Shown: positions 15,657-26,540, numbered from the stretch's first letter. The stretch: 64,000 nt of DNA from Eubacteriales bacterium (GCA_045541535.1 JAZQJG010000066.1:4136-68135), one strand, 5' to 3'. Program-made: numbers and translations. The notes: generated by a model not told the origin, from the letters alone.

Positions 15657-16940
15657 ATGACGCTGATTGAATTTTTTGACGAAAACCGCATTGAAAACGT
15701 GGCCTGCGCTCTGATCTGTAAGGCGGAGCGGGTATATCTGCTGGGGGGCTCCCCTGCGGGACTGGCTGAGTATTGCAGACGGTATGGGGAGCTGACGGGT
15801 AAGGAATTTATTGCCCGCAGTATCAACCGCAGTAAGCTGACCGAAACGGTAAAAGAATTGGAAAAGCTGATCCACGAGATCCTTGCCGAGGATGAGGAAT
15901 GCGTGCTGGAGCTGGCCGGCGGAGACGATCTCTGTCTGGTGGCCGCCGGTATGGTGGCGGATCGGTTTGAGAGCGGGGTGCGTTTGTGTCGCACCAACGT
16001 TCCCCACAGCCGTATCGACACCTTTTATCCCGAGAGCAAGAGCTGCAGTGCACCCCTGCGACTGAGCATTGCGGAGAACGTGCGCATATACGGTGGCGGA
16101 TTGCATCTGACGGAGAACTGGGATCTGGAGGCTATCCGTCCCACCGCCGAGCTGTTGTGGAGTCTGGGAGAAGAATTTTCCGACTGGAACAGCCGTTGCG
16201 AGCTGATGGGGCGGATCCGCGCCAATTTCCCCGTGGATGCCAATAACAATCCTTTGACCGTGGAAGGGGACAAGACGGGCTATCTGCGCTTCGGCGGGCG
16301 GTTTTCCGATATTTGCAATCCCAATCATCTGGCCCGGCTGACCCGTGCCCAGTTGCAACAAGTGATCGAACTGTTGCAGGCCATCTGGCGGCGGCAGGGG
16401 GAGGAAAATCAGGTATTGCGTTCCCTGTTGGTGGATGAGCAGGCGGGGCTGTTGTATGCGGAATTTGCAAGTGAGAGCGCCAAGCGCTTGCTGGACAAAG
16501 CGGGTCAGGTGCTGGAGGTCTGGCTGGCCTGTCAGCTCAAAGAACTGAAGGAGCCCAAGGCCAAGGTGGGCGGTCCCTTTTTCCAGGATATCTGCGTGGG
16601 CGCAGAGCTGGATTGGGACGGTGTGGCCGAGCCGGACAATTTGCCCGACGTCAATAACGAGATCGACGTTATGGCCATGCGGGGAATGATCCCCATCTTT
16701 ATTTCCTGCAAAAACGGCAAGGTCAAAACAGAGGAGTTGTACAAACTCTCCCACGTGGCCGAGCGCTTTGGCGGGGAATATGCCAAAAAGCTGTTGGTGG
16801 CCCGCTCTCTGGGAGCGGAGGACAACGCCGAGATCAGCTTTGAAAAGCGGGCCAAGGAGATGGGCATCCATCTTATAGAGTTGGACGAACTGGAAAATAC
16901 ACAGCAACTGCTGTGGGAAATACAAAAACATTGTATGTAG
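15657..16940 (+). CDS. Card1-like (DUF1887) protein: CARF-like N-domain + PD-(D/E)xK nuclease-like C-domain
   Basis: The N-terminus ENVACALICKAERVYLLGG ... LELAGGDDLCLVAAG is Rossmann/CARF-like. The C-terminus NEIDVMAMRGMIPIFISCKNGK fits the DUF1887 restriction-endonuclease-like signature. Confidence 0.65.
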   Translation: MTLIEFFDENRIENVACALICKAERVYLLGGSPAGLAEYCRRYGELTGKEFIARSINRSKLTETVKELEKLIHEILAEDEECVLELAGGDDLCLVAAGMVADRFESGVRLCRTNVPHSRIDTFYPESKSCSAPLRLSIAENVRIYGGGLHLTENWDLEAIRPTAELLWSLGEEFSDWNSRCELMGRIRANFPVDANNNPLTVEGDKTGYLRFGGRFSDICNPNHLARLTRAQLQQVIELLQAIWRRQGEENQVLRSLLVDEQAGLLYAEFASESAKRLLDKAGQVLEVWLACQLKELKEPKAKVGGPFFQDICVGAELDWDGVAEPDNLPDVNNEIDVMAMRGMIPIFISCKNGKVKTEELYKLSHVAERFGGEYAKKLLVARSLGAEDNAEISFEKRAKEMGIHLIELDELENTQQLLWEIQKHCM

Positions 16941-16952
16941 AGGAGAAAAAAT

Positions 16953-17420
16953 ATGGGACTCAACAAAAGTGATCTGATCTTTGCCGCACTGCAGGCGGCG
17001 CTCAACAAAATTGATTGGAAGTACCGTGTACGGGAAAACAGCAGAATGATCGTCAGCGGTATGAGAGGGGACGATCTGCCCATTGACGTAAAGATCGACG
17101 TCAGAGAGGATATGGAGACCATTCTTTACGTTTCCGTCCTGCCCTTTGAGGTACCGGCTGAAAAGCGTATGGAGATGTGTACGGCCCTCAACGTCACCAA
17201 CTACGTATTAAGGGACGGTTGCTTTTCCATGGATATGGCCGACGGCAACGTGTTGTTTAAGCTGACCACCTGCTATCACGATTGTAACGTGGGAATGGGT
17301 CTGTACGTCCATTATCTGGAGCGTATGTGCGCCACGGTGGATCATTTTGACCGCAAATTGTACGAGCTGTCCACCGGTGAGATCACCTTGAAGGATTATA
17401 TTGCTTTTGTGATGGAATAA
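16953..17420 (+). CDS. YbjN-like (T3SS-chaperone-like) domain protein
   Basis: 155 aa. The pattern ..ILYVSVLPFEVPAEKRMEMCTALNVTNYVLRDGCFSMDMADGNVLFKLT is typical of the YbjN family as I recall it. Confidence 0.55.
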   Translation: MGLNKSDLIFAALQAALNKIDWKYRVRENSRMIVSGMRGDDLPIDVKIDVREDMETILYVSVLPFEVPAEKRMEMCTALNVTNYVLRDGCFSMDMADGNVLFKLTTCYHDCNVGMGLYVHYLERMCATVDHFDRKLYELSTGEITLKDYIAFVME

Positions 17421-17424
17421 AAAC

Positions 17425-18327
17425 GTGACCGGAGAAGAAATCTATCAAACAATAGAGGCGGCCTTGGTACAGAGAAACTGTACCGTTCGGCGGCAACAGG
17501 TATACGGTGTGCAATGGCTGGAAGCCGTGCGAAGGTCGGGGGATAGCGTAAGGGTGCAGTACTTGCAGTGGGAGAACGTATCGGAACTGGAGTTTACCGT
17601 TGCGTTGGCCACCCCGATCAAAAAGGAAAATACGGTTACGACCTGTGTGTTGGCCTCCCGCCCCCTCTACCCGTTCACCGTGGAAGGGAATCGGGTTTTG
17701 TACCGTCGGCGGTTTGCGTTGTCGGAGCCGGTGGACACCGAATATCTTATCCGCGCTCTGGAACGGATGTGGGCGGTTACGGATCGGTACGTTTGGTATT
17801 TTGCGGCGGTGGACGTTACGGCACAGCCAAAGCAGGTGTTGCCGGAGGATTTGCCGCCCATCAGCCATTCGTCAGACCGTCTGCAGGAGGCGGATTCCGA
17901 GAACTTTGTGGGCCTTGGGGAGGCATTTGAACAGGCAGGCTGTTACGTGGAAGCGCGGGACGGCCGCTTTGCCGCCACCCCGGAGGGCGGCTTTCCGTAT
18001 ATGGTATATCGGGAGCCGGAGTCGGCACAGTTGCGCATCTGCTATCGATTGGGGCGGATCCCACGGCACAAGCGGGCGGCGGCCTGCGTCCTTCGTTGCG
18101 CCCTGCAACGGGAGATGGAGGGCCTTTATCTGCAATTTGACGTGGATGATGGGACGTTGGAGCTTTGTTATGAGTTACCCTACTACGCCGCCCCGGAAAA
18201 TGATTTCATCGCCTTGGTTTTGAAAAGACTCTTTCGGCAACGTCGGAGGACAACGCGCTTTTTTAACCGATTAAACGACGGTTGTCCCCTGGGGGAGCTG
18301 TTGGAGGAACTGGGAGGTTTGGGATGA
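17425..18327 (+). CDS. hypothetical protein, apparently two YbjN-like modules
   Basis: GTG start 4 nt after the upstream stop. The second half, RICYRLGRIP..CALQREMEGLYLQFDVDDGTLELCYEL, repeats the YbjN-like pattern. Confidence 0.5.
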   Translation: MTGEEIYQTIEAALVQRNCTVRRQQVYGVQWLEAVRRSGDSVRVQYLQWENVSELEFTVALATPIKKENTVTTCVLASRPLYPFTVEGNRVLYRRRFALSEPVDTEYLIRALERMWAVTDRYVWYFAAVDVTAQPKQVLPEDLPPISHSSDRLQEADSENFVGLGEAFEQAGCYVEARDGRFAATPEGGFPYMVYREPESAQLRICYRLGRIPRHKRAAACVLRCALQREMEGLYLQFDVDDGTLELCYELPYYAAPENDFIALVLKRLFRQRRRTTRFFNRLNDGCPLGELLEELGGLG

Positions 18328-19220
18328 GCGCCAACGAACAACTGCTGGAATGTTTTGGAAAAGTATTGGCAGAACAAGGAATTTATTGCAGATTGGAGCA
18401 TTCTGCGTTGGTGGGGAGCGAGCCCTATCCCGTGTTGGTGCGGGCGGAGGGGTATTCGCTGAACGTTCGCATCGGCTACGGCCCCGCCAACGGACGGCAG
18501 CATTACGTGAAAACGGCGGTGCAATTGGCACGGGCCGGCGCATTTTGCGACACCGGCGGCACCTTTTGCCAAACAGAGGCGGCAGCGCCGGAATATCGCC
18601 GTACCTTTGTTTTTATCTACGATCCTACGCCGGACGTGCTGGAGGCTTGGGCGGAACAGCTTTTGCGCATTATGCATGGGTTTCGCGGCTTTATTTATGA
18701 GGGCAAGCCCATTGCATATCTGCCCGATCAACCCTTACGTTATAACGACAATCCCGAATTTTTGGGGCGGCTGGCACGGCGTAATATGCAACGGATGAAG
18801 CGATTTTTGATACAAGAGGACTTGCCCGCCACCGAACGGGACAATATGCTGGGCTGTGCCCTGCCGGAGGGAAGCGTTTTTACGATACAGCCAAACGTCA
18901 ACGGACAGTTTTTGCTGGTGAGCAGTCAACGGATTGACGTTCCCGATCATAAACTGGCATTGGCGGCGGCCTTTCAGGCCTTGCTCAATACCCGTATCGA
19001 GCCCTTTTACGTGGACACCCATCTGGAGGAGGGCTGGTTGCGGCTCTGCCTGACGCTGGATTATGCCGGTGGCACCCCCATCGCCTCGGAGAAGATGACC
19101 CTGTTGCGGGAATTTTCGGAAACGACGGAGCGGTTGAAGGAACTGTACAACACGCTGTTTCGGGAGGAAACGGACGTGCGTGCCCTGTGGCAAAGCATAT
19201 ATAACAGTGGACTGAAATAA
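18324..19220 (+). CDS. hypothetical protein, apparently two YbjN-like modules
   Basis: The ATG at 18324 overlaps the upstream TGA (ATGA coupling). The C-terminal half, ..ALLNTRIEPFYVDTHLEEGWLRLCLTLDY, is YbjN-like. Confidence 0.5.
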   Translation: MSANEQLLECFGKVLAEQGIYCRLEHSALVGSEPYPVLVRAEGYSLNVRIGYGPANGRQHYVKTAVQLARAGAFCDTGGTFCQTEAAAPEYRRTFVFIYDPTPDVLEAWAEQLLRIMHGFRGFIYEGKPIAYLPDQPLRYNDNPEFLGRLARRNMQRMKRFLIQEDLPATERDNMLGCALPEGSVFTIQPNVNGQFLLVSSQRIDVPDHKLALAAAFQALLNTRIEPFYVDTHLEEGWLRLCLTLDYAGGTPIASEKMTLLREFSETTERLKELYNTLFREETDVRALWQSIYNSGLK

Positions 19221-19230
19221 AGGAGAGGCT

Positions 19231-19764
19231 ATGTATACACCCCAACCCACCAAAACCGACCATATCACCCTGCCCGAAACGCTGTTACCCCTGCGGGAAA
19301 AGCTGGCGGAAAACGTCCATCGGGTATGGATGGAGACCCGCCTGTCCCAGGGCTGGCGCTATGGCCCCCGTCGGGACGACGAGCAACTGACCCATCCGGG
19401 GCTGGTGCCCTACGGGGAGTTGTCCGAATCGGAAAAGCGGTTTGATCGGGCCACCGCGCTGGGGACTCTTCGGCTGATTTTGGCGCTGGGCTATCGGATA
19501 ATTGCCGATGAGCAGACCGAGGGATTTCCGCCTGAGCTCTACCAACTGCAGGAGCAGATTGCCGAGGATATCCACGACATCTGGTCCAAGGGACGGCTGG
19601 AGCAGGGCTGGCGTTACGGCCCGGCGCGCAATGATGAAACGAAGGAGCACCCCTGTCTGGTGCCCTACGAGGAGCTCAGCGAGGAGGAAAAGGAATACGA
19701 CCGCCGTACCGCCTTTGAGACCTTATCCCTGATCCTTGCATTAGGTTATAAAATTTATAAATAA
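19231..19764 (+). CDS. tandem RyR (ryanodine-receptor repeat) domain protein
   Basis: Two internal repeats: AENVHRVWMETRLSQGWRYGPRRDDEQLTHPGLVPYGELSESEKRFDR..ILALGYRI and AEDIHDIWSKGRLEQGWRYGPARNDETKEHPCLVPYEELSEEEKEYDR..ILALGYKI. Confidence 0.75.
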   Translation: MYTPQPTKTDHITLPETLLPLREKLAENVHRVWMETRLSQGWRYGPRRDDEQLTHPGLVPYGELSESEKRFDRATALGTLRLILALGYRIIADEQTEGFPPELYQLQEQIAEDIHDIWSKGRLEQGWRYGPARNDETKEHPCLVPYEELSEEEKEYDRRTAFETLSLILALGYKIYK

Positions 19765-19772
19765 CGAGTAAG

Positions 19773-19805
19773 ACCGCCGTGGGAACGCCACGGCGGTTTT
19801 TTATT
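19773..19805 (+). terminator. intrinsic terminator after the RyR gene
   Basis: Perfect 10-bp stem accgccgtgg/ccacggcggt followed by T6. Confidence 0.8.
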
Positions 19806-19807
19806 TG

Positions 19808-19836
19808 TTGACAGTATATCAATAAAATTATATAAT
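19808..19836 (+). promoter_or_regulatory. consensus sigma-A promoter TTGACA-17-TATAAT
   Basis: Both hexamers are perfect with a 17-nt spacer, 40 nt upstream of the 19877 ATG. Confidence 0.7.
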
Positions 19837-19876: not shown

Positions 19877-22800
19877 ATGAATAAAAGTAAAGCTTTAAGG
19901 GCAATGATGCTGACCGCTCTGCGCCGCACGGCGGCCTCCGGTATTTATAAAATTACGCCGGAGCAATTTTTACTTTGTGTGGCGGAGATCGATACGCTGA
20001 ACGCCGATTCGGAAGTGATGCGGGCGGTGGATCTGCTACGTCACAGGGCGGAGAATTTTGAGCGTTTTCAACAGGCACTGCAATATTTTCTTCGTTTAAA
20101 GCAGGGAGAGCCTGCGGAATTTGACGAGGCGCTGGAGCGTGCCGAAGAGAGAAGTCAGGCGGCGGAAAAAACGGAACTGACGCTGGATGCGCTGGTGGAG
20201 GAAATCCTGGAGGAGCCCGGCCGTAACGTGGGCTTTGCTCTGCTGTGTGAAGAAGCGGAGCTGGAATTGTTGCGGGCAGAACTGGAAGAGGAGGCGCAAG
20301 GGGCGTCTTCCGGCCGGGAGCGCACGGATGAGGAACTGTTGCAACTGCTGGAACGGTTACATCAGGTGGAACAGGAGGAAATGGCGGAGCTGATGGGAGC
20401 TCTCAATCCGGCGGATCTGGAACGGTTGGGCGAACTGCTTACCGAGCAGCATCCGGAGGTTTTGGAGGAGGATCCGGACCGTACCTATACCGATGAGGAA
20501 CTGTGGGCGCTGTGGGAGCAAATGGACGAAGCGGACGGCGACGAGGTAGACCGTGTTTTGGAGAGTTTGCCCCCCGCGGATCTGAAGCGTCTGGTGGAAC
20601 TGATTGAGGAAAAGCGAGAGGATCTGCTCACCGAACTGGCGGTGGATTTGGCAAATATGGAAGAAAAGGCGAAGGCGGAGGATTCCGCATCCGAGCTTTC
20701 GGTGGAGGAAAAGGCGAAACGTGCCATTCTCACCCTGGACCGTATGATGAAACAGGGGGATCACGTGGGGGCCTTCACAATGATCCAGAACACCGAGCCG
20801 CCCGTGGCTATGGAGATCATTTCTTTGATGCAACAGGCCGGTATGTTGGAGGAGGATGCCGCCGAGCAGTTGCGATATGCGCTGGGCGGCGAGGAAGCCC
20901 TGCAACAGAAACCCGAAGATATGGAAGAAAACAAAGGAGCCGAGGAGCCCCGTGCAACGGGCAAACTCTCGGACTTTTTGGCAGAGCTTTTGGGCACCGC
21001 CATGGCAGAGGCTGAAGAAGTGCTTGGGGAGGAGACCGAACAGGTGATCACCGAGAAAGAGGAGGCGGCAGACGTTGACGCCATCACCCGACTGGTGACC
21101 CGTGTCAACGACATTCGCACCAAGCTCCTTGGCAAGGTATTTGGTCAGGAGCACGCCGTGGACGTGTGTGTGACCGGTTTGTTTAATGCGGAGTTTGCCG
21201 CCCTCACCGGTCACGAGACCAACAAGCCCCGGGCCACCTTCCTCTTTGCCGGACCTCCCGGCGTGGGTAAGACCTATCTGGCTGAATCTATGGCTGAGCT
21301 GATGGGACTGCCCTATCTGCGGGTGGATATGAGCGAGTTTGGTAATTATCACGGCTCCGAGCGCTTTAGAAACGTTCTTCAATTCGTGAAGGAAAAGCCC
21401 AAAAGCGTTATTTTGTTTGACGAGATCGAGAAGGCCAACGGCGAGGTTATCAATCTGTTTTTGCAGATTCTGGACGCCGGCAGAGGCGGCGAGGCGCCCC
21501 GTGCGGTCAGCTTTGCCGAGACCTATCTCTTTTTTACCACCAACGTGGGTCGGGGGCTGTACGAGGGCACCGATCAGACCGATCTCTCCGGCAACAGCCG
21601 CAAGGTGATCCTGCGGGCCTTGGAGCAGGAGATCAATCCCCAGACCCGTCAGCCTATGTTCCCGGCGGCCATCTGTTCCCGCTTTGCCACCGGTAACGTG
21701 GTGATGTTCAATCACCTGCCCGCCCACCAGCTTTGTCGCATTGCCAAGGACGTGATCCTGCGGCGGGCAGAGGGTGTGGCCAACAAGATGAATCTGCAGG
21801 CGGAATTCGACCCTGCCGTTTTTTCCACCGTTCTTTTTGCCCAGGGCGGTCGGGCCGACGGCCGTACGGTAACCGCCTGTGCCAACGCCTTCTTTGAGGG
21901 TGAGCTGTACGAGCTGTTCCGTATGGTCCACAGCAAGGCGGAGGACAAGAAGATCGGCAACATCCGTCGGGTGCGCTTTACCCTGGAAATGCCCGAGGAT
22001 GAAGAACTCCGCAAGCTGTACGTGGCAGAGGAAAAAATGAAGGTGCTGATGTTTGCCGATTCCCTGACCGGCGCCCTGCAACGCCCTGCCTGTAACCAAT
22101 GTGAAATTCTGACCGTGGATAATATTCCCCAGATGGAGCTGCTGTTGGCCACCGAGCCCATCCGTCTGGTGCTGTGCGATATTTCCTACGGTTTTAAAAC
22201 CAGTGATTATCTCAACACCGAGGATTGCAGCTCCCGTGGACGGGATTGCTTTAAAAGACTGCGGGAGCGGCATCCCGCTTTGCCCGTTTATCTGCTCCAC
22301 GACGGTTTGAGTGACGAGGAAAAGGTTTCCTTTACCCGTGAAGGGGCCAGAGGATTTTTTGAGAAAACTGCCATCCATCATCCGGAGACCATGACGGCCT
22401 TGGACGAGATCGCCCTGCAGCTTCATCAGCAGGAGAGTATGTACGCCCTGGCCAGTACCAATCGTATGGTGGATTATGAAACGGCCCAGCGGATCTCCGA
22501 GGACGGCGAGAGCTGTGAGATCCGTATCTTTGATCTGTGCACTCGGGTCAACGTGGACGCCGAGGATCGCGACAGCGTGCTCTCCGCCTTGGAAAAACCG
22601 GACGTAAACTTCGCCGACGTGATCGGCGCCAAGGATGCCAAGGAAGAACTGCAGTTCTTTGTCAATTACCTGCGGGATCCCAAGGCCTTCCGCAAAAGCG
22701 GGACCAAGGCGCCCAAAGGCGTTCTGCTCTACGGCCCTCCCGGCACCGGTAAGACTATGCTGGCCAAGGCCATGGCCAACGAATCCGGCGTCACCTTTAT

Positions 22801-23920
22801 TGCCAGTGAGGGCAACGCCTTTTTGAAAAAATGGGTGGGCGAGGGCCCGCAAAAGGTGCACGAGCTGTTTGCCACCGCCCGTAAATATGCGCCCGCCATT
22901 ATTTTCGTGGACGAGATTGACGTGATCGGCAAGGAGCGCTCGGGAGACGACGGCACCGGCTACAAGCCTGACGATATTCTCACCGCGTTTCTGGCCGAGA
23001 TGGACGGCTTTGCCGCCAACCCCGACAAGCCGGTCTTTGTACTGGCCGCCACCAATTACAGCGTGGAGGCGGGCAATGCCAAGAGTCTGGACGGAGCGCT
23101 GTTGCGGCGCTTCGACCGGCGGATCCTGGTGGATCTGCCGGATAAGGAGGAACGGTTGCGCTATCTTAAACTGCGCACCGAAAAGGATACCTTCTTTAAG
23201 GTCAGCCAGGCGCAACTGGAGAGTCTGGCCGCCCGTTCGGCGGGGATGAGCCCCGCTTTGCTGGAGGGTGTGCTGGAAATGGCCAAGAGAGAAGCTCTCA
23301 AGGACGGCGCTTCCGCAGTGGACGACAATATGCTGGACCGTGCCTTTGAGACCTACAACAGCGGAGAGGAAAAGGTGTGGAATCCCGATCAGCTGGAGCG
23401 GGTGGCCTATCACGAGGCAGGACACGCCTTGCTGAGCTGGCTGGCGGGGGACAAGCCCACCTACATCACCATCGTGGCCCGTGGCAATCACGGCGGCTAT
23501 ATGCAACACGGTGATAACGAGGGCAAGGCCATCTTCACCAAGGATGAATTGTTGGCGCGCATTCGCACCTCTTTGGGTGGACGGGCCGCCGAACTGCTAC
23601 ATTACGGCGACAAAGACGGCGTAACCACCGGCGCCTCCGGTGATCTGGCCTCGGCCACCGAGCTTGCTACCCATCTGGTTTGCTCCTACGGTATGGACGC
23701 CGACTTCGGTCTGGCGGTGATTTCCCCCGAAGCGGCCTATAAGGGCGGCTTGGCGGAAGAAATCCGCGCCACCGTTAACGTCTTGCTTCAGGAACAGTTG
23801 ACCCGGGCCATCGGGCTGTTGCAGGAGCATCAGAACAAACTGGAGGCTATGGTGGAGCGCTTGTTGGACTGCAACCACCTGACTGCCGAAAAAATCGAGC
23901 AGATCTTTGCTGAAAATTAA
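19877..23920 (+). CDS. soluble dual-AAA+ metalloprotease chimera (acidic N-region, Clp-D2-like AAA+, receiver-like domain, FtsH-type AAA+ and M41 peptidase)
   Basis: Walker A FAGPPGVGKT and Walker B VILFDEIEKA, preceded by GQEHAV (Clp D2 style). Second Walker [11 protein letters not shown] and Walker B IIFVDEIDV. Zn motif HEAGH and GASGDL are present. There is no hydrophobic TM segment, unlike the canonical ftsH at 40733. Confidence 0.8.
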   Translation: MNKSKALRAMMLTALRRTAASGIYKITPEQFLLCVAEIDTLNADSEVMRAVDLLRHRAENFERFQQALQYFLRLKQGEPAEFDEALERAEERSQAAEKTELTLDALVEEILEEPGRNVGFALLCEEAELELLRAELEEEAQGASSGRERTDEELLQLLERLHQVEQEEMAELMGALNPADLERLGELLTEQHPEVLEEDPDRTYTDEELWALWEQMDEADGDEVDRVLESLPPADLKRLVELIEEKREDLLTELAVDLANMEEKAKAEDSASELSVEEKAKRAILTLDRMMKQGDHVGAFTMIQNTEPPVAMEIISLMQQAGMLEEDAAEQLRYALGGEEALQQKPEDMEENKGAEEPRATGKLSDFLAELLGTAMAEAEEVLGEETEQVITEKEEAADVDAITRLVTRVNDIRTKLLGKVFGQEHAVDVCVTGLFNAEFAALTGHETNKPRATFLFAGPPGVGKTYLAESMAELMGLPYLRVDMSEFGNYHGSERFRNVLQFVKEKPKSVILFDEIEKANGEVINLFLQILDAGRGGEAPRAVSFAETYLFFTTNVGRGLYEGTDQTDLSGNSRKVILRALEQEINPQTRQPMFPAAICSRFATGNVVMFNHLPAHQLCRIAKDVILRRAEGVANKMNLQAEFDPAVFSTVLFAQGGRADGRTVTACANAFFEGELYELFRMVHSKAEDKKIGNIRRVRFTLEMPEDEELRKLYVAEEKMKVLMFADSLTGALQRPACNQCEILTVDNIPQMELLLATEPIRLVLCDISYGFKTSDYLNTEDCSSRGRDCFKRLRERHPALPVYLLHDGLSDEEKVSFTREGARGFFEKTAIHHPETMTALDEIALQLHQQESMYALASTNRMVDYETAQRISEDGESCEIRIFDLCTRVNVDAEDRDSVLSALEKPDVNFADVIGAKDAKEELQFFVNYLRDPKAFRKSGTKAPKGVLLYGPPGTGKTMLAKAMANESGVTFIASEGNAFLKKWVGEGPQKVHELFATARKYAPAIIFVDEIDVIGKERSGDDGTGYKPDDILTAFLAEMDGFAANPDKPVFVLAATNYSVEAGNAKSLDGALLRRFDRRILVDLPDKEERLRYLKLRTEKDTFFKVSQAQLESLAARSAGMSPALLEGVLEMAKREALKDGASAVDDNMLDRAFETYNSGEEKVWNPDQLERVAYHEAGHALLSWLAGDKPTYITIVARGNHGGYMQHGDNEGKAIFTKDELLARIRTSLGGRAAELLHYGDKDGVTTGASGDLASATELATHLVCSYGMDADFGLAVISPEAAYKGGLAEEIRATVNVLLQEQLTRAIGLLQEHQNKLEAMVERLLDCNHLTAEKIEQIFAEN

Positions 23921-23964: not shown

Positions 23965-26499
23965 ATGCAACAGTTTTTAGAAGCCTTTTTGGCACTTCTC
24001 GGCAAGAAAACCTATCCGGCAGAGCCAAAGGTGATGCTGATCACCACGGCCCTGTCCCTGCTGGTGTTGGCGCTGGCCATCGGCATTGCGCTCAAACGAC
24101 GCAAGCCCACCGGCGGCAAGCCTTTTCCCTTTTCCCGTGGCATCGTATCGGTGGCTCTCATTGCCTTTTCGGTGTTTATCTACGTATTTCCCTTGCAGAT
24201 GTACGTGTATCTGGGAGATTATCAAGGGGAATGGGATCTGGGAGCGGCTATTGCGCTGGCCCTTTACGAAACGGTCCGTGTCTTTCTGGTGGGCGCCGAT
24301 TTTAACTTTGTGAAGGATGCCGTCAGCACCAGCTCCGATATTTTGCAGAGCTTTTGCGTGATTTACGGCGGCCTGCTGTATGCCTTGGCTCCGATGATGA
24401 CCATCGGCTTTGTGCTCTCTATGTTCAAGGATTTCTGGGCGCAGGTGCGCTTTATGATGCCCCGGTATTTCCGTACCACCTATTACGTTTTTTCCGAACT
24501 CAACGAGCGCTCTCTGGCCCTGGCCACCAGCATCTGCCGGCAATACCATTCTCCCTGGGACAGATGGTTTAGGGGGGCAAAGACTGCCTCTTTAAATGCG
24601 GCACAGCCCGTGGAGCAACCCACGCCTTACGAAGCGCAGGGCGAACTGCTGAAGAGCGTGCAGGCACAACTGGCACAGGTGGAAAAGAGGCTGCGGGAGG
24701 CGACGGGGGATGAAAAGCGGGATTCGCTTACGGTCCAACGGCAACAATTGCTGGAATTGGAGCAGACGCATCGGCATATTTTGGAAAACGCTCCGCAAGA
24801 GGTGCGGGTAAAATACCTGAAGGAAGAAGACCGGGGTGCCGCCCGAAAGTCCTCGGTCAACCGGCGGAAGCCCTATTTCGGTAAGCCCATCATCGTGTTT
24901 ACCGACGTATACGTGCAAAACGAGGAGCGACCCTACGAGCTGACCGCCAGAGCCAGAGAATTGGGCGCTATCTGCCTGAAAAAGGATATTACCACCCTGA
25001 ACGTACATAAACGGTGGAACGGTGTGGAGTTTTACGTCATAGGCGAGAACGAATCGGAAAATCTGCATCACGCCTTGCATCTGGTGGAGCAATGCGCCCA
25101 GCGTCCGGTAAAGGTGCGCCGCAGAGTGTATATCTTCGCTCGCACCGAAACGGCGGCCCATATCATTGATTCGGCCCAAGGACAGGAGTTGACGGAACTG
25201 CGGGAGCAGTTAAAAGAATCCTTTGCAAAAAATGAAGAAAAATTTGCCGCCAACACAGAGGATCCCGGCCTGATCAAGGCCAATATTCAAAAAATGCTGC
25301 AGGCCCATCAACGGATGAGCGACGAGCGGCTTATGATCCGCAGGGTGGACGACGTGCAACTGTTGGTACTGCGCACTTTGAGGCAGGCAAAGCTCTTTGA
25401 ATCCGCCAAAAGCACCGGCAAGATCTGTATCACCGTGGCCGGTATGGGCGAATACGGCAGAGCCTTTGTTAAAACCGCCCTGTGGTTTTGCCAGACCGAG
25501 GATTATTTTCTGGAGCTCAACGTGATTGATGAAAACGGTGATGCCCAGCAACGGCTGTGGCACGAATGCCCCGAGCTGATGGCCCGTAACGGCGTCGTTG
25601 AGGCAGGGGAGGCCCGTTACAGTATGCGGTTTTTCAGCGGTGTCAACTGCTTTGACAAAACGCTGGACGAATTGCTGGAGGGCAAGAAGGGCTTTACCGC
25701 AGAGGATGCCGCCCGTCTGGGCCGCACCACCCATCTGTTTATCGCCTTGGGCGACGATGATCGCAATATTGAGGCGGCAATGATGTTCCGCAATCGCTTT
25801 GATCGCCTGCGGGGCTTTCGGGCCAATAAGAAGATCAAACCGGAAGAGGAAACTCTTGCCATCTATGCCGTGGTCTACGACGATCAAAAGGCGCACAATC
25901 TGGATATTTCCGAGAATGACAAGCAGACGCTGATCAACCACGAGAGCATCCCTTATAATATCAATTTCATCGGCAGTATGAGTGAGCAATATCGGTACGA
26001 CTTTTTCCACGACGACGAGGAGGAGCATCGGGCCTTTGCCTATCATATGGATTGGGCGGCCTCGGAATTTGCCATCCGTCTGGCAGAAGCCCGCAGGCAG
26101 GGCGCCGTGGCGGTGGATCTTACCTATTTGGATCAGTTGTCCGACCCCGAAGAAGCCTATCAAGATATTATGAAATACGAGCAGTACGAGTATTATCGGG
26201 AGTCCTCCCTGGCCAAGATGCACCATCGAGAAGCCAGTCTGGATGCCATGCCCAAACGACTGCTTTGTCACTACGTCTTACCCACGGAAACGCCGGAAAG
26301 ACGGCGACAGGTGAAACCCTACGTTGGCTGTCAGTGTGAGAACTGTCAGCGCCGCCGTCGCAGTGAGCATATGCGCTGGAACGCCTATATGCGCGCCCAG
26401 GGCTACGTTTTCGGTCCCCGCAAGGCCACCCGCGGCAAGGTCCACGCAGATCTCAAGCCCTTTGCCGGGCTACCCCTTCACGAGCAGCTTAAGGATTAA
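23965..26499 (+). CDS. membrane protein with Rossmann-like (TrkA-N-like) central region and C-terminal RyR-like domain
   Basis: About 4 N-terminal hydrophobic segments, a coiled-coil-like stretch and a glycine loop ICITVAGMGEYG. The C-terminus SEHMRWNAYMRAQGYVFGPRKATRGKVHADLKPFAGLPLHEQ resembles the RyR repeat of the 19231 gene. Confidence 0.65.
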   Translation: MQQFLEAFLALLGKKTYPAEPKVMLITTALSLLVLALAIGIALKRRKPTGGKPFPFSRGIVSVALIAFSVFIYVFPLQMYVYLGDYQGEWDLGAAIALALYETVRVFLVGADFNFVKDAVSTSSDILQSFCVIYGGLLYALAPMMTIGFVLSMFKDFWAQVRFMMPRYFRTTYYVFSELNERSLALATSICRQYHSPWDRWFRGAKTASLNAAQPVEQPTPYEAQGELLKSVQAQLAQVEKRLREATGDEKRDSLTVQRQQLLELEQTHRHILENAPQEVRVKYLKEEDRGAARKSSVNRRKPYFGKPIIVFTDVYVQNEERPYELTARARELGAICLKKDITTLNVHKRWNGVEFYVIGENESENLHHALHLVEQCAQRPVKVRRRVYIFARTETAAHIIDSAQGQELTELREQLKESFAKNEEKFAANTEDPGLIKANIQKMLQAHQRMSDERLMIRRVDDVQLLVLRTLRQAKLFESAKSTGKICITVAGMGEYGRAFVKTALWFCQTEDYFLELNVIDENGDAQQRLWHECPELMARNGVVEAGEARYSMRFFSGVNCFDKTLDELLEGKKGFTAEDAARLGRTTHLFIALGDDDRNIEAAMMFRNRFDRLRGFRANKKIKPEEETLAIYAVVYDDQKAHNLDISENDKQTLINHESIPYNINFIGSMSEQYRYDFFHDDEEEHRAFAYHMDWAASEFAIRLAEARRQGAVAVDLTYLDQLSDPEEAYQDIMKYEQYEYYRESSLAKMHHREASLDAMPKRLLCHYVLPTETPERRRQVKPYVGCQCENCQRRRRSEHMRWNAYMRAQGYVFGPRKATRGKVHADLKPFAGLPLHEQLKD

Positions 26500-26511: not shown

Positions 26512-26540
26512 TTGACAAAAATTCGGGCCCTCATTATAAT
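26512..26540 (+). promoter_or_regulatory. consensus sigma-A promoter TTGACA-17-TATAAT
   Basis: Perfect hexamers with a 17-nt spacer, directly upstream of the riboswitch. Confidence 0.7.

What the first reader, a model, noticed from the sequence alone, without database searches (positions are those of the whole stretch)
19231..19764. Stand-alone bacterial protein consisting of two RyR repeats
The internal duplication is directly visible: A E(N/D)(V/I)H..W...RL.QGWRYGP.R.DE...HP.LVPY.ELSE.EK..DR......L.LILALGY(R/K)I occurs twice. RyR repeats are best known from eukaryotic ryanodine-receptor Ca2+ channels, and the function of bacterial and phage homologues is unknown. A 177-aa protein that is nothing but two repeats looks like a dedicated binding or regulatory module.
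Basis: partly seen in the sequence, partly recalled or inferred. Interest (0 to 1): 0.6.

Follow-up and report, generated by a model that had tools for sequence, protein, structure and literature searches.

The report
Stand-alone two-repeat RyR nucleotide-binding protein
This 177-residue bacterial protein is a free-standing copy of the nucleotide-binding "Repeat12" clamp of animal ryanodine receptors. It sits in a mobile, defence-like gene island whose relatives in other gut bacteria are tied to TIR immune-signalling genes, so it probably binds or destroys an ADP-ribose-type alarm molecule.

Summary
ORF 19231-19764 (+) encodes 177 aa made of two RyR repeats (Pfam PF02026, E 2.8e-60). The halves are 60% identical (E 4e-29). 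The AlphaFold model superposes on human RyR3 Repeat12 (TM 0.87-0.92).

Both repeats keep the four ligand residues (H-W-H-D) at the same spacing as the phage proteins RyDEP and RyR Tad, which two 2026 preprints show bind or cleave 2'/3'cADPR.

The gene is not isolated. In 26 of 80 related loci and all 5 RyR-carrying relatives, a small RyR gene lies directly downstream of a homologue of the window's 844-aa membrane protein or its AAA+/M41 protease. That membrane protein's C-terminus is itself RyR-like (hhalign 96%). TIR genes abut these genes in 19 loci.

The 11-kb island is inserted between prfB and a P-type ATPase; a same-genus genome has the empty site. The ATPase adjacency is therefore coincidental.

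Almost all relatives are single-repeat, so the window's fused tandem form is uncommon but not unique.

Most likely role: a sink or terminator, or else a sensor, for an adenine-nucleotide immune signal. This is inferred, not shown. Other first-stage notes from this scan already flagged the surrounding cluster on this same window.

The parts
19220..19225 (+). Ribosome-binding site AAGGAG, 5 nt before the ATG
   Evidence: Read directly from the sequence.
19231..19764 (+). Gene for the 177-aa tandem RyR (Repeat12-like) protein, including the stop codon
   Evidence: ORF list. Pfam PF02026 E 2.8e-60, two stretches. AF2 model pLDDT 85.7. Foldseek TM 0.87-0.92 to RyR3 Repeat12 and the Bt-hRyR chimera.
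19231..19506 (+). RyR repeat 1 (aa 1-92); ligand positions H30, W33, H55, D72
   Evidence: Spacing +3/+22/+17 is identical to RyDEP H75/W78/H100/D117 (PMC13232231) and RyR Tad H129/W132/H154/D171 (10.64898/2026.06.04.730250).
19522..19761 (+). RyR repeat 2 (aa 98-177); ligand positions H115, W118, H140, D157
19770..19800 (+). Intrinsic-terminator-like hairpin (13-bp stem followed by a T run) right after the RyR stop codon
   Evidence: It is a consensus match only; no transcript data are available.
19808..19836 (+). Perfect TTGACA-17-TATAAT promoter-like site in front of the AAA+/M41 gene
   Evidence: 12 of 12 matches. It suggests that the RyR gene ends the first transcription unit of the island.
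15657..16940 (+). Island gene 1: Card1-like CARF/PD-(D/E)xK protein (427 aa)
   Evidence: Pfam Card1_endonuc E 6.5e-8. PADLOC CARF4--CARF_PDDEXK E 4.8e-20. Homologues occur in 18 of 80 related loci.
16953..19220 (+). Island genes 2-4: one YbjN-domain protein (155 aa) and two unannotated proteins (300 and 312 aa)
   Evidence: Pfam YbjN E 1.9e-5 for the first. YbjN155 homologues occur in 14 of 80 loci. The 300- and 312-aa proteins have no family hit.
19877..23920 (+). Island gene 6: soluble AAA+ / AAA+ / M41 (FtsH-type) protease, 1347 aa
   Evidence: Pfam AAA, AAA_2 and Peptidase_M41. Homologues occur in 18 of 80 loci. In L103 and L104 the small RyR gene directly follows it, with a 4-nt overlap or a 3-nt gap.
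23965..26499 (+). Island gene 7: 844-aa membrane protein (N-terminal TM helices, Rossmann-like core)
   Evidence: Family of about 60 clusters and 417 genome loci. AF2 pLDDT 79. No significant whole-chain PDB fold match.
26344..26496 (+). RyR-like C-terminal segment of the membrane protein (aa 794-844); H802, W805, H827 and D844 have RyR spacing, and the last helix of a full repeat is missing
   Evidence: BLASTP E 6e-4. hhalign 96.2%, E 2.1e-9. The family profile hits both RyR repeats in the own genome. PHROG 5154 E 1e-5. Residue spacing.

Best explanation
The gene encodes a soluble, self-contained Repeat12-like clamp: two RyR repeats fused in one chain, each with an intact adenine-nucleotide pocket. 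It is one component of an 11-kb accessory, defence-like island. The island also holds a Card1-like CARF nuclease, YbjN proteins, an AAA+/M41 protease, and a membrane protein with a RyR-like C-terminal sensor. In related genomes the same genes are directly joined to TIR-domain signal-generator genes. I propose that the protein binds an ADP-ribose-derived TIR-type signal (2'cADPR, 3'cADPR, cADPR or a relative), or possibly another adenine nucleotide. I further propose that it acts as the island's built-in signal sink or terminator, either a sponge or a RyDEP-like glycosidase. In that role it would set the threshold for firing of the RyR-sensor membrane effector and the protease, and reset them afterwards. 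This would be the functional counterpart of stand-alone CARF ring nucleases in type III CRISPR. Shown: domain identity, predicted fold, conserved pocket residues, conserved gene linkage, and island nature. Inferred: the ligand, the direction of regulation, and that the island is a defence system.
For: Domain and fold: PF02026 E 2.8e-60. RyR Repeat12 E about 1e-55. Foldseek TM 0.92 to human RyR3 R12 bound to AMP-PCP and azumolene, and TM 0.87 to the Bt-hRyR tandem chimera.

Pocket: H30/W33/H55/D72 and H115/W118/H140/D157 have exactly the spacing of the ligand and catalytic residues of RyDEP and RyR Tad.

Linkage: in 26 of 80 loci found with the membrane-protein family, a small RyR gene lies on the same strand no more than 289 nt downstream (mostly under 90 nt) of that gene or of the AAA+/M41 gene. 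The same holds in 5 of 5 RyR-carrying relatives and in 2 of 3 contigs found by exact look-up.

The effector carries the same fold: the membrane family's C-terminus is RyR-like at 96% hhalign probability.

TIR link: TIR_2 proteins occur in 27 of 80 loci, and all 10 that I checked were confirmed by Pfam. They abut island genes in 19 loci, and three loci read membrane protein, RyR, TIR. The own genome has at least 5 TIR proteins elsewhere, and no Cas10 or SMODS CD-NTase was found in it.

Accessory island: one same-genus genome has the empty prfB-ATPase site and another has a reduced variant. RyR is patchy, in 9 of 61 relatives.
Against: There is no TIR gene in the window or on its contig, so any TIR signal would have to come from elsewhere in the genome. 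In L103 and L104 the small RyR follows the protease with no RyR-sensor membrane protein present, which fits a sensor or adaptor role better than a decoy role. System-linked single-repeat RyRs carry Thr at the second His position (26 of 27), whereas both window repeats carry His. The window protein may therefore belong to a different subclade with a different ligand. In the window the gene sits upstream of the protease, not in the usual position downstream of the membrane or protease gene. According to PMC13232231, conservation of the H/D dyad does not predict catalysis. Animal R12 binds ATP/ADP, so the ligand could be an ordinary nucleotide.
Confidence: 0.45

Rival explanations
1. Sensor or adaptor. 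The RyR protein is the ligand receptor that switches the island's effectors on. Once loaded with nucleotide, the clamp closes and docks onto the AAA+/M41 protease or the membrane protein, activating them or being degraded by them.
For: In L103 and L104 the only RyR domain in the cluster is the small protein, translationally coupled to the protease gene. Solved R12 structures exist in open and closed forms, including ligand-bound entries (6UHA, 6UHE, 6UHH). The gene sits tightly at the 3' end of the effector genes.
Against: Where the membrane protein is present it already carries its own RyR-like sensor, which makes a second sensor redundant. Characterised stand-alone RyR proteins are sinks or hydrolases, not activators. 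In the window a terminator and a promoter separate the RyR gene from the protease gene.
Confidence: 0.3
2. Metabolic nucleotide sensor. The protein binds ATP/ADP, like animal Repeat12, and reports energy state. Its link to immunity genes is incidental, or the island is a stress or proteostasis module rather than a defence system.
For: Human RyR3 and RyR1 R12 bind ATP/ADP (PDB 6UHH, 9L9B, 7TZC). The island encodes an FtsH-type protease and YbjN proteins, neither of which is defence-specific. No PADLOC model covers RyR proteins.
Against: Distribution is patchy and island-like at a variable hotspot. The cluster is repeatedly joined to TIR, STAND-NTPase-TIR, CARF-PD-(D/E)xK and TerB genes. Phage homologues prefer cADPR isomers with nanomolar affinity.
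Confidence: 0.12
3. Counter-defence cargo. The gene is a mobile-element or prophage anti-Thoeris sponge, like RyR Tad or RyDEP, that happens to sit in this island.
For: All experimentally characterised stand-alone RyR proteins are phage anti-defence factors. The protein hits phage families PHROG 5154, 11782 and 18865. Unverified faecal 'Bacteriophage sp.' contigs carry a 57%-identical RyR.
Against: There are no phage or integrase genes in the island. The gene is co-oriented and tightly spaced with host-type genes. Linkage to the same partner genes is conserved across many genera of gut Clostridia.
Confidence: 0.08

Closest known systems
Repeat12 (R12, RY1&2) domain of animal ryanodine receptors, e.g. 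human RyR3 848-1055 (PDB 6UHE, 6UHH, 9L90/9L91) and RyR2 862-1071
   Same: Two RyR repeats in one chain form a pseudo-two-fold clamp. Sequence E is about 1e-55. The model superposes with TM 0.87-0.92. The H..W...H pocket residues that contact adenine nucleotides and dantrolene are conserved.
   Different: It is a free 177-aa protein, not a domain of a 5000-aa channel, and the inter-repeat linker is shorter. It keeps Asp at the fourth position in both repeats, where the RyR2 repeats have Asn. The two halves are much more alike (60%) than RyR2 R1 and R2 are. Nothing links it to calcium: the neighbouring P-type ATPase is a core gene that stays in place when the island is absent.
Bacteroides thetaiotaomicron 'putative ryanodine receptor' (PDB 3NRT, 4N05, 6UAG) and the engineered tandem chimera Bt-hRyR_12 (6UHI, 6UHS)
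   Same: A bacterial stand-alone RyR domain, about 54% identical to each window repeat. The engineered tandem is the best fold match. It has the same HWHD residues.
   Different: The natural B. thetaiotaomicron protein has a single repeat. Its function is unknown, and I did not examine its genomic context.
Phage RyDEP (mycobacteriophage DyoEdafos gp78) and RyR Tad (Pectobacterium phage CB1 gp68)
   Same: The same Pfam family and the same four ligand or catalytic positions at identical spacing. All are small soluble proteins whose whole job is to bind or cleave a nucleotide signal.
   Different: The phage proteins are single-repeat homodimers that act against host Thoeris. The window protein is a fused tandem, chromosomally encoded in a host island next to candidate effectors. 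Similarity is too low for DyoEdafos to appear in the tblastn search at E 1e-5. Activity is untested.
Stand-alone CARF ring nucleases (Crn1 type) of type III CRISPR. This is a functional analogy only, drawn from my own knowledge.
   Same: A free copy of the effector's sensor fold, encoded beside the effectors, that removes the signal.
   Different: The fold and the ligand are unrelated. The analogy is an inference and was not tested.

Membership tests
Pfam RyR domain (PF02026) | Profile match above the gathering score | tested here: met
   201 bits against a cut-off of 27.4, E 2.8e-60, two stretches. The whole-genome scan finds both repeats.
Repeat12-type tandem RyR clamp | Two repeats in one chain that fold as a pseudo-symmetric pair | tested here: met
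   AF2 pLDDT 85.7, pTM 0.67. Foldseek TM 0.87-0.92 to RyR3 R12 and 6UHI over about 200 columns. This rests on a prediction, not a solved structure.
Repeat12-type tandem RyR clamp | Adenine-nucleotide pocket residues (His, Trp, His) conserved | tested here: met
   H30/W33/H55 and H115/W118/H140. H30 and W33 are invariant across 34 aligned homologues.
RyDEP / RyR Tad family (signal glycosidase or sponge) | Catalytic or ligand dyad His + Asp at RyDEP positions 75 and 117 | tested here: met
   H30/D72 and H115/D157 at identical spacing. The paper shows that the dyad alone does not predict catalysis.
RyDEP / RyR Tad family (signal glycosidase or sponge) | Binds or cleaves 2'cADPR / 3'cADPR | not testable with these tools
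   This needs biochemistry.
RyDEP / RyR Tad family (signal glycosidase or sponge) | Encoded by a phage as an anti-defence gene | tested here: not met
   It is chromosomal, lying between prfB and a P-type ATPase, with no phage genes in the island.
Thoeris-type TIR signalling system | A TIR-domain signal generator in the same gene cluster | tested here: not met
   There is no TIR on the window's contig; the own-genome TIR hits lie on other contigs. The feature is met in related loci: 27 of 80 carry TIR, and in 19 it directly abuts island genes.
Thoeris-type TIR signalling system | An effector with a signal-binding domain | tested here: inconclusive
   The membrane protein has a RyR-like C-terminus, but neither ligand binding nor toxicity has been tested.
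Ryanodine receptor Ca2+ channel | Pore-forming transmembrane region plus SPRY, Ins145_P3_rec, MIR and RIH domains | tested here: not met
   The protein has only 177 aa, and the only Pfam hits are RyR and an overlapping DUF7701.

The most novel reading that the evidence does not exclude
Bacterial RyR domains are native receptors for TIR-made ADP-ribose signals. On this reading, the membrane protein with a RyR-like C-terminus is the effector of an undescribed Thoeris-like family in gut Clostridia, which is variably combined with a CARF nuclease and an AAA+/M41 protease. The stand-alone RyR protein would be its host-encoded signal terminator or co-receptor. The eukaryotic Repeat12 domain, and the disputed cADPR sensitivity of ryanodine receptors, would then descend from this immune receptor module. 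Fusion of a homodimer into a tandem chain would have happened repeatedly: here, in P0002, and in eukaryotes.
Probability: 0.3. Interest if true: 0.8.

Novelty: new variant of a known kind. Interest (0 to 1): 0.6.

Why it matters
Until 2026 the RyR domain had no known function outside animal calcium channels. Two preprints now show that phage versions bind or destroy TIR-made cADPR isomers.

This finding gives the host side. A family of gut-bacterial islands carries a RyR-like module on a candidate membrane effector, a free RyR protein beside it, and often a TIR gene directly adjacent. If the link is real, three things follow:
- It adds a new sensor fold and a host-encoded signal-control step to TIR immunity.
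- It explains what phage RyR sponges are mimicking.
- It offers a small, tractable, naturally fused bacterial Repeat12 domain (177 aa, both pockets intact) for testing whether Repeat12 binds cADPR-type ligands. That question has been open in ryanodine-receptor biology for decades.

If the link is not real, the protein is simply another uncharacterised RyR-domain protein.

Tried and rejected
- Calcium link: rejected. The P-type ATPase next to the island sits directly after prfB in a same-genus genome that lacks the island, so the adjacency is an accident of the insertion site.
- Type III CRISPR or CBASS as the signal source: no Cas10 (TIGR02578, TIGR02577) and no SMODS CD-NTase were found in the 97%-complete genome.
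- Internal duplication versus fusion of two genes: unresolved. In the ML tree the two repeats are not sisters. Repeat 1 is nearest to the P0024/P0082 type, and repeat 2 is nearest to system-linked RyRs. The tree that holds them together is not rejected (p-AU 0.97), and the 99-column alignment resolves few forks. The two repeats of P0002 are sisters (SH-aLRT 88), which suggests a separate duplication.
- Whole-chain Foldseek of the 844-aa membrane protein: no hit with E below 0.03. There are only faint resemblances to RCK-type K+ channels and to Rossmann enzymes.
- PADLOC PDC-S05 hits to the RyR protein (E about 1e-3): none of 10 other RyR proteins reproduces them, so I treat them as chance.
- Phage collection: only 18 records match at E 1e-5. 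The best two are unverified faecal contigs with no system genes nearby, so they are not informative.
- GC content does not mark the island.
- Literature searches for host RyR together with CARF or defence, and for PF02026, found nothing beyond the 2026 phage papers.

Full report
**1. The observation**

Window 19231-19764 (+) is an intact ORF of 177 codons. An AAGGAG ribosome-binding site lies 5 nt upstream, and the ORF starts 10 nt after the stop of the preceding gene. Pfam RyR (PF02026) matches at E 2.8e-60 (201 bits; cut-off 27.4) in two stretches.

The two halves align at 60% identity over 77 residues, E 4e-29.

Sequence search of the PDB gives RyR1/2/3 Repeat12 at E about 1e-55 and the Bacteroides thetaiotaomicron RyR protein (3NRT) at E 1e-27.

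**2. Structure and pocket**

An AlphaFold2 model (34-row alignment; pLDDT 85.7, pTM 0.67) shows two copies of the same unit: a long helix, a hairpin, a short helix, a long helix and a strand. The linker between them is of low confidence (residues 91-100).

Foldseek against the PDB puts the engineered tandem Bt-hRyR_12 chimera first (6UHI, TM 0.87). Human RyR3 Repeat12 bound to AMP-PCP or ADP plus dantrolene or azumolene follows (9L91_A, TM 0.92), along with the ATP complex 6UHH.

Two 2026 preprints define what the fold does outside animals:
- RyDEP of mycobacteriophage DyoEdafos is an inverting glycosidase. It opens 2'cADPR and 3'cADPR to ADPR using H75 and D117, with W78 stacking on the adenine and H100 on the phosphates. 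Other phage homologues with the same residues only sequester the signal (PMC13232231).
- RyR Tad of a Pectobacterium phage is a gcADPR sponge that uses H129/W132, H154 and D171 (10.64898/2026.06.04.730250).

In the window protein, H30/W33/H55/D72 and H115/W118/H140/D157 reproduce the +3/+22/+17 spacing of both phage proteins exactly. Both pockets therefore look intact. Sequence alone cannot tell whether they bind only or also cleave.

**3. How unusual is the tandem form?**

Of 1602 homologues in the word-indexed search, virtually all are single-repeat proteins of 97-110 aa. Only one other protein, P0002 (178 aa, 47% identity), is a tandem of similar size.

The exhaustive search of 1.84 billion representatives gives 6715 hits at E <= 1e-3. 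Among its best 150 there are 12 short proteins (131-260 aa) with two RyR domains. The fused form is therefore uncommon but not unique.

All RyR genes found in relatives and in the related loci that I fetched are single-repeat, apart from the one on the P0002 contig (L003).

I could not decide whether the window's tandem arose by internal duplication or by fusion of two genes:
- Each repeat is closer to some single-repeat proteins (64-67%) than to its partner (60%).
- The maximum-likelihood tree does not pair the two repeats.
- A tree that does pair them is not rejected (p-AU 0.97).

The two repeats of P0002 are sisters (SH-aLRT 88). That points to a separate duplication there.

**4. Genomic context in the window**

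The seven genes are:
- a Card1-like CARF/PD-(D/E)xK protein (Pfam; PADLOC CARF4--CARF_PDDEXK E 5e-20);
- a YbjN-domain protein;
- two unannotated proteins (300 and 312 aa);
- the RyR protein;
- a 1347-aa soluble AAA+/AAA+/M41 protease;
- an 844-aa membrane protein with no family hit.

A 13-bp-stem terminator-like hairpin (19770-19800) follows the RyR gene. A perfect TTGACA-17-TATAAT site (19808-19836) comes next. On these pattern matches, the RyR gene probably closes the first transcription unit.

The membrane protein ends in a RyR-like segment. The evidence is:
- BLASTP E 6e-4;
- hhalign 96.2%, E 2.1e-9, aligning RyR residues 22-74 with residues 794-844;
- the family profile picks out both RyR repeats in the own genome;
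- PHROG 5154 hits both proteins.

H802/W805/H827/D844 have the canonical spacing, and D844 is the last residue. The final helix of a full repeat is therefore missing, as it is throughout the family.

**5. Is the neighbourhood conserved?**

Yes. The membrane-protein family has about 60 clusters and 417 loci in species-representative genomes. All 80 loci fetched are from gut Clostridia MAGs labelled Oscillospiraceae, Acutalibacteraceae, Faecousia, Ruminococcus, Lachnospiraceae or Christensenellaceae.

In these 80 loci I found:

| Partner gene | Loci (of 80) |
|---|---|
| Small RyR gene | 26 |
| AAA+/M41 homologue | 18 |
| CARF/PD-(D/E)xK homologue | 18 |
| YbjN homologue | 14 |

In every case the RyR gene is on the same strand and no more than 289 nt downstream of the membrane gene or the protease gene. 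The gap is mostly under 90 nt, and some genes overlap. A typical order is CARF, YbjN x2, AAA+/M41, membrane protein, RyR (L016, L030).

Independent samples agree:
- Of three close RyR homologues looked up by exact sequence, two sit next to a membrane-family gene, and one of those loci also has the CARF gene.
- Of 61 related genomes, 9 have a RyR match. In all 5 with a strong single-repeat match, it abuts the membrane gene (L101, L102, L105) or the protease gene (L103, L104: CARF, protease, RyR).

**6. The TIR link**

Clustering all genes in the loci revealed a 548-aa family directly after the membrane gene in 12 loci. Pfam calls it TIR_2 plus BspA-type LRR.

A profile built from that family's N-terminal regions found further TIR proteins with TPR, STAND-NTPase, LRR, HD or membrane modules. 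All nine that I checked with Pfam are TIR_2, with E between 1e-22 and 1e-7.

Among the 80 loci, 27 carry a TIR gene. Across the 28 TIR-bearing loci analysed (those 27 plus L105), it lies within about 100 nt, on the same strand, of a membrane, RyR or CARF gene in 19. In L020, L077 and L105 the order is membrane protein, RyR, TIR.

Other recurrent neighbours include:
- a TerB-domain protein right after the RyR gene; a RyR-TerB fusion (P0048) also exists;
- PrsW proteases;
- transglutaminase-like giants;
- an unannotated pair of about 280 aa and 90 aa.

The window's own contig has no TIR gene. The genome has at least five TIR proteins elsewhere, including a TIR-kinase fusion, and I found no Cas10 or SMODS cyclase in it.

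**7. Island nature**

In a same-genus genome (G006), prfB is followed directly by the orthologous ATPase. In another (G002), the same site holds only a diverged CARF gene and an AAA+/M41 gene.

RyR is not found at significance in the six other genomes of the genus searched.

The seven-gene block is therefore a variable accessory island at a hotspot, and its adjacency to a Ca2+-type ATPase is coincidental. GC content does not set it apart.

**8. Mechanism**

Established:
- the protein is a Repeat12-like clamp with two intact nucleotide pockets;
- it is genetically tied to a membrane protein carrying the same sensor fold and to an AAA+/M41 protease;
- this gene set is repeatedly joined to TIR signal generators and to a CARF nuclease.

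Inferred:
- the ligand is an ADP-ribose-derived TIR product;
- the free RyR protein removes or buffers that signal.

The inference about the protein's role rests on two points. Every characterised free RyR protein does this, and a free copy of an effector's sensor fold encoded beside the effector is how ring nucleases work in type III CRISPR (my own knowledge).

I give this reading 0.45. The main rival (0.3) is that the protein is the activating sensor or adaptor for the protease. This fits L103 and L104, where no membrane sensor is present. A plain ATP/ADP energy sensor (0.12) and a mobile anti-defence sponge (0.08) are less likely.

Four caveats apply:
- System-linked single-repeat RyRs have Thr where the window repeats have the second His.
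- The window gene sits in an atypical position.
- No TIR gene is adjacent in the window.
- Nothing has been tested experimentally.

**9. Novelty**

The domain and its stand-alone bacterial form are known (Pfam; 3NRT), and phage members now have a function. I found no description of host-encoded RyR proteins as components of TIR- or CARF-linked islands, nor of a RyR-like sensor on a membrane effector. The Thoeris survey preprint (10.64898/2025.12.03.692087) does not mention RyR in its text or its held supplements. I rate this a new variant of a known kind, with interest 0.6.

Other first-stage notes on this window had already flagged the cluster, the membrane protein's RyR-like tail and the protease. 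I tested those points independently here.

Noticed in passing
L053:3154-4800, and equivalents in L040, L044, L051, L058, L067, L070, L071, L079, L083, L089: A 548-aa TIR_2 + BspA-type LRR protein lies 15-32 nt downstream of the membrane-protein homologue in these loci, usually followed by a CitMHS-type permease. It looks like a two-gene Thoeris-like unit with a RyR-like sensor on the effector.
   Followed up: partly
window 26044-26055 (aa 694-697 of the 844-aa protein): A second 'H..W' motif (H694, W697; H694 is nearly invariant in the family) sits in a helical region upstream of the RyR-like tail. The C-terminal 160 residues may be a degenerate two-repeat RyR module. This was not tested.
   Followed up: no
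L121 (G002:C75) and L122 (G006:C34): The prfB-ATPase site holds three states within one genus: empty (G006), CARF + AAA+/M41 only (G002), and the full seven-gene island (the window). It behaves as a variable hotspot.
   Followed up: yes
L008:1295-2364, L019:2106-2954, L054:8056-8328 and 6 further loci: An unannotated pair of about 280 aa and about 90 aa recurs upstream of the CARF or membrane genes. The small partner has a CxxC motif and resembles an anti-sigma zinc finger. It may be a dedicated regulator pair. Neither protein has a Pfam hit.
   Followed up: partly
L012:13795-14256, L021:13776-14234, L028:5912-6262, L033:13795-14256; protein P0048: A TerB-domain protein follows the small RyR gene within about 110 nt in L012, L028 and L033 (about 1.1 kb downstream in L021), and P0048 is a natural RyR-TerB fusion. 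P0067 is an HD-phosphohydrolase-RyR fusion, and L074 carries a TIR-HD protein.
   Followed up: partly
27 small RyR proteins of the related loci (rows SYS_): System-linked single-repeat RyRs almost all have Thr (26 of 27) at the position of the phosphate-contacting second His. Both window repeats, B. thetaiotaomicron 3NRT, RyDEP and RyR Tad have His. This may reflect a difference in ligand or subclade.
   Followed up: partly
window 26512-26540: A second perfect TTGACA-17-TATAAT site lies just after the island, in front of the ATPase leader.
   Followed up: no
L125 (MT836850.1) and L126 (MT837259.1): Two unverified 'Bacteriophage sp.' contigs from human faeces encode 97-100-aa RyR proteins 53-57% identical to the window repeats, with no island genes nearby. 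I could not tell whether they are phage or bacterial.
   Followed up: partly
G000 contigs C56, C54, C30, C10 (L109-L112): The genome has several TIR-domain proteins away from the island, including a TIR-Ser/Thr-kinase fusion (432 aa) and one next to a serine recombinase and an SPFH protein.
   Followed up: partly
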